This document shows positions 8,751 through 8,788 of a DNA stretch of 8,788 nt, in pieces (the stretch's first letter is position 1; each line of letters starts with the position of its first letter). The DNA lies in the UHGV virus genome UHGV-1374307; one strand, 5' to 3'. The translations under genes were made by a program, and so were the position numbers. Origin of the DNA: a virus. The notes beneath the pieces are model-generated. The model was not told the origin of the DNA and did not search any database. It saw only the letters and a list, made by a program, of their open reading frames with translations.

Positions 8751-8777
8751 GATGCGCACAATGACGTTATGCTAAAG
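8751..8777 (+). other. dif-like Xer recombination site B (candidate attP half), inverted relative to site A
   Basis: Plus strand reads GATGCGCACAA-TGACG-TTATGCTAAAG: 9/11 to the XerC arm and 9/11 to the XerD arm of E. coli dif, with a 5-nt central region. Confidence 0.5.
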
Positions 8778-8788
8778 AGGCCGCTGCG
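8777..8788. terminator. 5' half of the junction-spanning terminator hairpin
   Basis: GGCCGCTGCG (8779-8788) preceded by AAAGA; pairs with 13-22 across the presumed circular junction; lies 35 nt downstream of the stop of CDS 7955-8743. Confidence 0.5.

What the first reader, a model, noticed from the sequence alone, without database searches (positions are those of the whole stretch)
8751..8788. Window ends are exact reverse complements: circular genome cut inside a bidirectional terminator
The last 10 nt (GGCCGCTGCG, 8779-8788) are the perfect reverse complement of nt 13-22 (CGCAGCGGCC). Joined end to start they give AAAGA-GGCCGCTGCG-ggattcgatttt-CGCAGCGGCC-TTTT, a 10-11 bp GC-rich stem with A-tract upstream and T-tract downstream, placed between the convergent ends of the plus-strand gene 7955-8743 and the minus-strand gene 97-330. 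A 10-bp inverted repeat at the two window ends is unlikely by chance, and the junction also completes the dif-like hairpin. The window therefore probably is the whole 8788-bp circular phage genome, about 2 kb larger than IKe as I recall it.
Basis: seen in the sequence. Interest (0 to 1): 0.55.

Follow-up and report, generated by a model that had tools for sequence, protein, structure and literature searches.

The report
Filamentous phage dif-integration hairpin
The matching window ends are real and the window is one full unit of a known E. coli/Salmonella filamentous phage (CUS-1/Ypfφ family), but the hairpin it was cut in is the tip of the folded single-strand attachment site these phages use to insert at the host dif site, which is already described and only secondarily, if at all, a terminator.

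Summary
Bases 8779-8788 are the exact reverse complement of 13-22, and only 9 of 8788 possible cut points would give this. The window is one complete unit of a CUS-1/Ypfφ-type inovirus. In an E. coli chromosome with a tandem prophage array, the copy-to-copy junction reads window end joined to window start with no base missing.

The "bidirectional terminator" reading is only partly right. The GC stem caps a roughly 94-nt forked hairpin made of two inverted dif-like sites, at 8751-8777 and 24-56. Ten variants from four genera keep the pairing through compensatory changes, including inside the arms. G·T wobbles fall on the gene-sense (presumed packaged) strand. Junctions predicted from XerC-side exchange with E. 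coli dif match real prophage ends exactly.

This is the CTXφ-type single-strand attP, already reported for CUS-1φ and Ypfφ. A terminator role for the antisense cargo gene remains possible but was not tested.

Novelty: already known. Interest: low.

The parts
8751..8777 (+). attP2-like dif-like site: XerC-type arm GATGCGCACAA (8751-8761), 5-nt central TGACG (8762-8766), XerD-type arm TTATGCTAAAG (8767-8777). It forms the 3' half of the folded site when read on the - strand.
   Evidence: Python scan against E. coli dif: 2+2 arm mismatches. Homology among different cargo variants starts exactly here.
8778..8788 (.). Left arm of the GC cap stem (A8778 plus GGCCGCTGCG)
1..12 (.). Loop of the cap hairpin (GGATTCGATTTT; AAAATCGAATCC on the gene-sense strand). 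The window is cut between 8788 and 1.
   Evidence: The loop starts AAAAT on the gene-sense strand in E. coli, Xenorhabdus bakwenae (L101) and Photorhabdus variants; Xenorhabdus sp. BG5 (L102) has AGAAT.
13..23 (.). Right arm of the GC cap stem (CGCAGCGGCC plus T23)
24..56 (-). attP1-like dif-like site, read on the - strand as GGTGCGCATAA (46-56, identical to the E. coli dif XerC arm), 11-nt central TGTACGACTCG (35-45), and TTATGTTGAAA (24-34, XerD-type arm). The inferred XerC cleavage point is between 46 and 45.
42..56. 15-nt identity with host dif (TACATTATGCGCACC). This is the crossover interval and the direct repeat that flanks single-copy prophages.
97..330 (-). 77-aa ORF of unknown function, in the position described for YPO2281. 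It is the last gene of the phage-sense operon before attP.
   Evidence: phrog_5435, RefSeq CDS WP_001159442.1, gene order as in PMC4266046
7955..8743 (+). 262-aa antisense cargo ORF of unknown function. It ends 8 nt (8744-8750) before the attP2-like site and 35 nt before the cap stem at 8779.
   Evidence: phrog_5814, RefSeq CDS WP_052907450.1. It is common in Salmonella, E. coli, Klebsiella and Enterobacter.
1..8788 (-). One complete unit of a CUS-1/Ypfφ-type inovirus. Genes II, V, VII, VIII, III, VI, I (Zot) and IV (secretin) lie on the - strand; regulators and cargo lie on the + strand.

Best explanation
The window is one full unit of a dif-integrating filamentous phage of the CUS-1/Ypfφ family, linearised inside the loop of its attachment-site hairpin. 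The 10-11 bp GC stem is the cap, or nucleating clamp, of a roughly 94-nt forked hairpin in the single-stranded genome. On the gene-sense strand the attP1-like site (window 56->24) pairs with the inverted attP2-like site (8777->8751). This pairing builds a duplex XerC arm and a duplex XerD arm around an unpaired 11-nt/5-nt central bulge.

Host XerC and XerD bind this pseudo-dif. XerC cuts after GGTGCGCATAA and exchanges one strand with chromosomal dif, where TGTA on the XerC side of the central region is shared. Replication then converts the intermediate into a prophage. An intact dif is regenerated next to orf77, which allows further integrations and tandem arrays.

Shown here: the architecture, its folding, its conservation and covariation, the strand bias, and the exact prophage junctions. 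Inferred by analogy with CTXφ: that the gene-sense strand is the packaged one, that ssDNA is the substrate, that XerC is the catalyst, and that replication resolves the intermediate. The cap may in addition terminate transcription of the antisense cargo gene.
For: (1) Two inverted dif-like sites flank the stem. Their central regions are 11 and 5 nt and their spacer is 34 nt. In CTXφ the values are 12 nt, 5-7 nt and 90 bp (PMC4246890).

(2) The joined region folds as ssDNA into the forked hairpin. MFE is -30.3 kcal/mol with z -6.7 on the - strand, and -28.1 with z -4.8 on the + strand.

(3) The same architecture occurs with different cap sequences in relatives with 52-88% pI identity: Rosenbergiella, Xenorhabdus, Photorhabdus, Marinobacter and an uncultured gammaproteobacterium.

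(4) Covariation on 10 variants: 96.1% of cells are paired, against 29-49% when partners are slid. Twelve pairs are changed on both sides, and 0 of 500 shuffles reach this. The changed pairs include ones inside the XerC and XerD arms (columns 8-89, 29-73, 22-80).

(5) Strand bias: 33 G·T and 23 mismatches on the gene-sense strand, against 11 G·T and 45 mismatches on the other. The gene-sense strand is the more stable in 15 of 16 variants.

(6) Junctions predicted from XerC-side exchange with E. coli dif are found exactly in integrated copies. Junction A is in L001-L003; junction B, with intact dif, is in L002, L176, L179 and L184 (sequences).

(7) Tandem arrays are common, as reported for Ypfφ (PMC4266046).

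(8) No integrase match among the 13 ORFs scanned against Pfam or PHROGs.

(9) The literature lists CUS-1φ and Ypfφ as CTXφ-type members and says their attP sites show features for direct ssDNA integration (PMC4246890; PMC3089051; PMC4266046).
Against: No experiment was done on this sequence. That the - strand is the packaged strand is inferred from Ff and CTXφ, not shown. G·T/G·U bias on the gene-sense strand would equally fit an RNA hairpin in the phage-sense transcript. Most close relatives carry an identical cap, so effective independent sampling is small: about 5-6 distinct caps in the alignment. One variant (L104a) folds slightly better on the opposite strand. Why the window was cut precisely in the loop is not explained by this model.
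Confidence: 0.8

Rival explanations
1. The hairpin is an intrinsic transcription terminator shared by the convergent cargo gene (7955-8743, +) and the phage operon ending in orf77 (97-330, -). It could be the sole function or a second function of the cap.
For: It sits between convergent annotated CDSs. It is a GC-rich 10-11 bp stem. As + strand RNA the loop closes through G·U pairs to 6 nt, with dG -30 kcal/mol and a UUUU tail. The cap with the attP2-like site persists downstream of unrelated cargo genes, even in remnants on plasmids. The purine-rich 5' loop side and the conserved ATTTT 3' loop side pair by wobble only on the + strand.
Against: The consensus scan calls no terminator at the joint, because the loop is 12 nt and there are only 4 T. 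The - strand version keeps a 12-nt loop and a poor tail, UCUUUAGC. The A- and T-tracts are the XerD-arm ends of the dif-like sites. They are not kept as T-runs in relatives such as L101, L150 and L168 that keep the architecture. A terminator does not explain roughly 30 further paired positions that mimic dif, or the compensatory changes inside them.
Confidence: 0.35
2. Only the double-stranded attP1-like site (24-56) is used, as in VGJφ-type elements. On this view the second site and the hairpin are irrelevant to integration.
For: The crossover lies in the attP1-like site, whose XerC arm is identical to dif. Junction sequences alone cannot tell ssDNA from dsDNA substrates.
Against: The 11-nt central region is far from the 6 nt of dif. 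For CTXφ such an extended central region makes the ds site unsuitable (PMC4246890). The two sites co-vary to stay complementary, with strand-biased wobbles. The inverted pair with a cap is conserved across genera. VGJφ-type elements carry a single site.
Confidence: 0.07
3. The long imperfect hairpin is the phage packaging signal or a complementary-strand origin, as for the hairpins that follow gene IV in Ff phages.
For: It is a long imperfect hairpin, more stable on the gene-sense strand, and lies downstream of the gene IV module.
Against: Its arms are dif mimics, which packaging would not require. Other hairpins are better placed: 782-830 directly after gene IV, and the If1-like intergenic element at 7525-7586. 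Non-integrating relatives (IKe L041, I2-2 L044, If1 L050) gave no such paired site in the scan.
Confidence: 0.05
4. The terminal complementarity is a coincidence or an assembly artefact with no biological joint.
For: The cut position in the loop is unexplained, and hairpins can end contigs in some library or assembly methods (my own inference).
Against: The exact joint occurs internally in independent complete chromosomes and in 16 IMG/VR contigs. Only 0.1% of cut points would mimic it.
Confidence: 0.01

Closest known systems
CTXφ attP(+) forked hairpin of Vibrio cholerae (Val et al. 2005; reviewed in PMC4246890 and PMC3089051)
   Same: It is an inovirus without an integrase. It has two inverted dif-like sites, one with a long central region (12 nt in CTXφ, 11 nt here) and one with a short one (5-7 nt in CTXφ, 5 nt here). 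Intrastrand pairing creates the XerCD substrate. Homology with dif is only on the XerC side of the central region. The attP lies between accessory genes and the regulatory region. Tandem prophages form at dif.
   Different: The spacer between the two sites is a compact 32-34-nt GC-capped hairpin rather than about 90 nt, so the folded region is about 94 nt rather than about 150 nt. The host and the dif sequence are enterobacterial. The phage encodes its own secretin (gene IV). No biochemistry exists for this variant.
CUS-1φ (E. coli O18:K1:H7) and Ypfφ/CUS-2 (Yersinia pestis)
   Same: The window is 99% identical over 86% of its length to the dif prophage of UM146, and its attP region is 100% identical to that of UTI89. 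Gene order matches the published Ypfφ description: replication, morphogenesis and secretion modules, two unknown ORFs by the intact dif, two variable ORFs at the other end, about 8.7 kb, and tandem copies (PMC4266046). Paired inverted XerC/XerD sites have been reported for Ypfφ.
   Different: The two cargo ORFs (94/98 aa and 262 aa) differ from those in UM146. I could not compare directly with the Y. pestis sequence. I take UM146 and UTI89 to be the CUS-1 lineage from my own knowledge of these strains, not from a tool result.
VGJφ-type and TLCφ-type IMEXs
   Same: They are integrase-less elements that insert at dif using host XerCD.
   Different: They carry a single double-stranded dif-like site and integrate reversibly (PMC4246890). 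Here there are two inverted, co-varying sites.
Rho-independent bidirectional terminators
   Same: A GC-rich stem with an A-run before it and a T-run after it, between convergent genes.
   Different: The loop is long on one strand, the T-run is only 4 nt, and the A and T runs belong to the XerD arms. The structure continues for about 30 more pairs that mimic dif.

Membership tests
CTXφ-type IMEX (folded single-strand attP) | Filamentous-phage gene set with no phage-encoded integrase | tested here: met
   Pfam and PHROGs identify G2P, G5P, G3P, DUF5455 (gene VI position), Zot and secretin. No recombinase match among the 13 ORFs scanned; gene VII comes from RefSeq annotation only.
CTXφ-type IMEX (folded single-strand attP) | Two dif-like sites in inverted orientation, one with an over-long and one with a short central region | tested here: met
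   Window 24-56 has an 11-nt central region and 8751-8777 a 5-nt one, 34 nt apart. CTXφ has 12 nt, 5-7 nt and 90 bp.
CTXφ-type IMEX (folded single-strand attP) | The two sites pair intrastrand to give duplex XerC and XerD arms around an unpaired centre, and the pairing is maintained by selection | tested here: met
   Folds. Covariation: 12 pairs changed on both sides, 0/500 shuffles. This is in silico only.
CTXφ-type IMEX (folded single-strand attP) | Structure specific to the packaged (+) strand | tested here: inconclusive
   Wobble bias and MFE favour the gene-sense strand. Which strand is packaged is inferred from Ff and CTXφ, not shown.
CTXφ-type IMEX (folded single-strand attP) | Integration at host dif, with the crossover at the border of the XerC arm and central region, and homology only on the XerC side | tested here: met
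   Predicted junctions are found exactly in integrated copies. The shared stretch is GGTGCGCATAA+TGTA; the XerD side of the centre differs.
CTXφ-type IMEX (folded single-strand attP) | XerC-only catalysis on ssDNA, resolution by replication, irreversibility | not testable with these tools
   This needs biochemistry or genetics.
CUS-1φ/Ypfφ lineage | Near-identity to the dif prophage of O18:K1:H7-type E. coli over about 7.1 kb, with a variable two-ORF end | tested here: met
   99.2% identity over 86% of the window to UM146. The cargo differs.
CUS-1φ/Ypfφ lineage | About 8.7 kb, about 13 ORFs in two orientations, tandem copies, intact dif regenerated at the orf2281 end | tested here: met
   8788 nt, 14 ORFs counting gene VII. 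Tandem arrays. Intact dif next to orf77.
Intrinsic (rho-independent) terminator | GC-rich stem, short loop (3-8 nt), and a run of at least 5 T in 8 directly after the stem | tested here: not met
   The consensus scan across the joint finds 0 terminators. As RNA the + strand meets the stem and loop criteria but has only UUUU. The - strand has a 12-nt loop and the tail UCUUUAGC.
Intrinsic (rho-independent) terminator | Actual termination of transcripts at the site | not testable with these tools
   This needs Term-seq or reporter assays.

The most novel reading that the evidence does not exclude
The compact GC cap could be a two-in-one element. On the packaged strand it would nucleate the ssDNA attP. 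On the opposite strand, as RNA, it would terminate the antisense cargo cassette. Together with the attP2-like site it would form a portable 3' boundary for exchangeable cargo, including defence-type genes (SIR2, TIR, PD-(D/E)XK, STM4504-family). That boundary has been copied onto E. coli plasmids and into dif-adjacent islands.
Probability: 0.3. Interest if true: 0.4.

Novelty: already known. Interest (0 to 1): 0.15.

Why it matters
It settles what the window is: a complete, circularly permuted CUS-1/Ypfφ-type phage genome, not an excerpt of a single-copy prophage. It also corrects the annotation of the end hairpin from 'terminator' to the tip of the XerCD attachment site. That matters for drawing prophage borders and for predicting which hosts, through their dif sequences, the phage can lysogenise. 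The biology itself, ssDNA integration at dif by CTXφ-type phages including CUS-1φ and Ypfφ, is already published. The covariation and strand-bias evidence across genera adds support but is not a discovery.

Tried and rejected
1. Megablast against the phage collection found no close relative, only short IKe, PEar and If1 pieces. Identification had to come from E. coli chromosomes instead.

2. I suspected that chromosome record NZ_CP173466 started at exactly window position 1. It actually starts at window 42, inside dif, so I dropped this lead.

3. The consensus terminator scan across the joint gave no call.

4. An Rfam gathering scan of the window gave no match.

5. The original CUS-1 paper (PMC135385) is not held. 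The UPφ paper has no mention of hairpin or attP.

6. I looked for an assembly explanation for the cut in the loop. IMG/VR prophage contigs are cut at the dif repeat, the Izhakiella contig L097 is cut at a 7-nt ATAATGT overlap in the XerC-arm/central border, and other stand-alone contigs are cut inside the cargo gene. None is cut in the loop, so the reason for this window's cut point remains unknown.

7. The Xenorhabdus variant L102 is misaligned by one column in the cap of alignment A1. I left it in, which makes the pair counts conservative.

8. I could not compare with the Y. pestis Ypfφ sequence. No Yersinia locus came back from the genome scan.

Full report
**Observation.** The last 10 bases of the window (8779-8788, GGCCGCTGCG) are the exact reverse complement of bases 13-22 (CGCAGCGGCC). 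A8778 and T23 extend the stem to 11 bp, and bases 1-12 form the loop. Each 10-mer occurs once in the window. Only 9 of 8788 possible cut points of the circle give a 10-nt end whose reverse complement lies in the first 40 nt. Perfect stems of at least 10 bp with 3-30 nt loops are far more frequent than in shuffles: 9 (start, loop) combinations against a mean of 0.34.

**What the window is.** Pfam and PHROGs identify a complete inovirus gene set on the - strand: G2P replication protein, G5P, major coat protein, G3P, DUF5455 in the gene VI position, Zot/pI and a secretin/pIV. Small ORFs of unknown function lie on both strands. RefSeq additionally annotates gene VII.

The window has no close relative among deposited phage genomes. 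It is 98-99.6% identical to chromosomal prophages in dozens of complete E. coli genomes, next to hipBA, which is the dif neighbourhood.

Its size, gene order and other features match the published description of Ypfφ and CUS-1φ. These features are two unknown ORFs beside the intact dif, two variable ORFs at the other end, and tandem copies (PMC4266046). The window is 99.2% identical over 86% of its length to the prophage of UM146. That UM146 and UTI89 belong to the O18:K1:H7 lineage in which CUS-1 was described is my own knowledge, not a tool result.

The window's cargo pair (94/98 aa and 262 aa) differs from UM146's. It is common in Salmonella, E. coli, Klebsiella and Enterobacter.

**Is the window a whole circular unit?** Yes, topologically.
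- In NZ_OU342919 the prophage is a tandem array. The copy-to-copy junction reads ...CTAAAGAGGCCGCTGCG|GGATTCGATTTTCGCAGCGGCCTTTT..., which is window end joined to window start with nothing missing.
- The tandem unit is 8861 nt, against 8788 nt for the window. The difference is a length polymorphism in the gene III repeat region.
- In single-copy prophages the order is dif, then window 42...8788, then 1...56, then chromosome.
- A colinear 1->8788 stretch therefore cannot be an excerpt of a single-copy prophage. It must come from a circle or a tandem array.
- The exact joint also lies inside 16 IMG/VR contigs.

**What the hairpin is.** The stem is flanked by two dif-like sites in inverted orientation.
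- On the - strand, window 56->24 reads GGTGCGCATAA-TGTACGACTCG-TTATGTTGAAA. The XerC arm is identical to that of E. coli dif and the central region is 11 nt.
- On the + strand, 8751-8777 reads GATGCGCACAA-TGACG-TTATGCTAAAG, with a 5-nt central region.

The 'A-tract upstream' and 'T-tract downstream' that suggested a terminator are the outer ends of the two XerD-type arms.

Joined and folded as ssDNA, the region forms a forked hairpin of about 94 nt. It has a duplex XerC arm, an unpaired 11/5-nt centre, a duplex XerD arm and the GC cap. MFE is -30.3 kcal/mol (z -6.7) on the - strand and -28.1 (z -4.8) on the + strand.

This is the architecture of the CTXφ attP(+), which has central regions of 12 nt and 5-7 nt and a 90-bp spacer (PMC4246890; PMC3089051). 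The difference here is a compact 32-34-nt cap.

**Evidence that the structure is selected.** Scanning about 170 related loci found the same architecture (site, hairpin, inverted site) in relatives whose pI is only 52-88% identical. These come from Rosenbergiella, Xenorhabdus, Photorhabdus, Marinobacter and an uncultured gammaproteobacterium. Their caps differ in sequence and length, from 32 to about 90 nt.
- Covariation: on an alignment of 10 distinct compact-cap variants, 96.1% of cells form standard pairs, against 29-49% when partners are slid. Twelve pairs carry changes on both sides, and 0 of 500 shuffles reach that number.
- In the cap, L038 has AGCCGCCTGCG/CGCAGGCGGCT where the window has AGGCCGCTGCG/CGCAGCGGCCT.
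- Compensatory changes also occur inside the XerC and XerD arms (columns 8-89, 22-80, 29-73). A terminator or two independent double-stranded sites would not require that.
- Strand bias: the differences between the two sites give 33 G·T wobbles and 23 mismatches on the gene-sense strand, but 11 G·T and 45 mismatches on the other. The gene-sense strand folds more stably in 15 of 16 variants.

Caveat: only about 5-6 caps in the alignment are truly distinct, and G·U bias would also fit an RNA made in the phage-sense direction.

**Mechanism.** I simulated XerC cleavage after GGTGCGCATAA on the gene-sense strand and exchange with the top strand of E. coli dif. This predicts two junctions.
- Junction A (chromosomal XerC arm, then phage centre, then cap, and so on) occurs exactly in L001-L003.
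- Junction B (phage, then XerC arm, then dif centre and XerD arm, giving an intact dif next to orf77) occurs exactly in L002, L176, L179 and L184.

The shared stretch is 15 nt (GGTGCGCATAATGTA), so homology exists only on the XerC side of the centre, as in CTXφ. The regenerated dif explains the frequent tandem arrays (PMC4266046).

Not shown here, and inferred from CTXφ and Ff: that the gene-sense strand is the packaged one, that ssDNA is the substrate, that XerC alone catalyses the exchange, and that replication resolves the intermediate.

**Terminator rival.**
- A consensus scan across the joint calls nothing, because the loop is 12 nt and there are only four T.
- As RNA, the + strand version closes through G·U pairs to a 6-nt loop, with dG -30 kcal/mol and a UUUU tail. 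It could plausibly terminate the cargo gene, which ends 35 nt upstream.
- The - strand version keeps a 12-nt loop and the tail UCUUUAGC.
- The T-run is not kept in more distant relatives that keep the architecture.

I therefore treat termination as a possible second function of the cap, not as the explanation of the element.

Other rivals:
- A double-stranded VGJφ-type site is disfavoured by the 11-nt centre, by the co-variation of the two sites and by conservation of the inverted pair.
- A packaging signal would not need dif-mimicking arms, and better-placed hairpins exist.
- Chance or an assembly artefact is excluded by the internal joints found.

**Comparison with what is known.** The literature lists CUS-1φ and Ypfφ as 'related members' of the CTXφ type (PMC4246890). 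It states that their attP sites show features for direct ssDNA integration (PMC3089051, citing Val et al. 2005). It also reports paired inverted XerC/XerD sites in the encapsidated Ypfφ genome (PMC4266046).

The finding is therefore a correct sequence observation, a correct inference of a full circular unit, and a partial misattribution of a known element. What is modestly new is the cross-genus covariation and strand-bias evidence, and the compactness of the cap.

**Unexplained.** Why the window is cut exactly in the loop. Other contigs of this phage are cut at the dif repeat or inside the cargo gene. I could not identify the source contig.

**Verdict.**
- Observation: confirmed.
- Novelty: already known.
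- Interest: 0.15.

Noticed in passing
window 8753-8788 + 1-31 (67 nt); L004 3001-3066, L005 3001-3066, L006 4001-4082: The attP2-like site, the GC cap and the start of the attP1-like XerD arm occur at about 84-94% identity in about 900 E. coli records, including 487 places on plasmids, without the phage. The module always lies directly after the stop codon of a different cargo gene: SIR2, STM4504/CBY_0614 family, TIR, or (in UM146) a hypothetical ORF downstream of an ECs_2282 Zn-binding gene. PD-(D/E)XK and STM4504-family genes also appear under whole-prophage matches. Homology between variants begins exactly at the XerC-type arm. In these remnants the right flank is different (CAACATATGGACATTTCTAATGAGCC...). 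This suggests that the attP edge is a boundary for cargo exchange, often of defence-type genes.
   Followed up: partly
window 7525-7586: A 62-nt stretch is 92% identical to the 'major intergenic region' of phage If1. Its first 45 nt (7525-7569) are 96% identical to Alteromonas phage phiAFP1, although the rest of those genomes is unrelated at DNA level. It contains a small hairpin (GTTCGGG...CCCGAAC). It sits at the left edge of the variable cargo region, since matches to other cargo variants stop at 7517-7594. It may be an origin or priming element that also serves as a homology arm for cargo swapping.
   Followed up: no
window 782-830: A perfect 14-bp stem (TTTGATGGATAGCG / CGCTATCCATCAAA) with a 21-nt loop overlaps the stop codon of gene IV, and no T-run follows it. 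By position it is a candidate packaging signal or attenuator.
   Followed up: no
window 7026-7054: A perfect 10-bp inverted repeat (AACGTGCAGT, 9 nt, ACTGCACGTT) lies between the small + strand regulatory ORFs 6826-7008 and 7097-7519, within the gene II-regulator region. It may be an operator.
   Followed up: no
window 1-12 (loop) and the corresponding loops in L038, L039, L045, L098, L101, L104: The cap loop begins with AAAAT on the gene-sense strand (ATTTT before the 3' arm on the + strand) in E. coli, Rosenbergiella, Xenorhabdus bakwenae (L101) and Photorhabdus variants, even where the stem sequence is completely different; Xenorhabdus sp. BG5 (L102) has AGAAT. On the + strand it can pair by G·U with the purine-rich 5' side of the loop.
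   Followed up: partly
window 4074-4167 (gene III): There is a length polymorphism of about 70 nt in the repeat region of the attachment protein gene between the window and the tandem unit of NZ_OU342919. G3P lengths range from 409 to 440 aa among otherwise near-identical prophages.
   Followed up: no
L099, L100, L106: Near-identical or related copies of this enterobacterial phage sit on contigs labelled Paenibacillus tengchongensis (1.35 kb, coverage 0.57), a Candidatus Nanosynbacter MAG, and Actinomadura monticuli (8359-nt contig with a 123-nt terminal overlap). These are probably contamination or mis-binning.
   Followed up: no
L097 (Izhakiella australiensis NODE_39, 8271 nt, coverage 336): A stand-alone high-coverage contig of a 94%-pI relative has ends that overlap by 7 nt (ATAATGT) at the XerC-arm/central border. 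This is the pattern expected when an assembly breaks at the dif/attP repeat of a tandem or episomal phage.
   Followed up: partly
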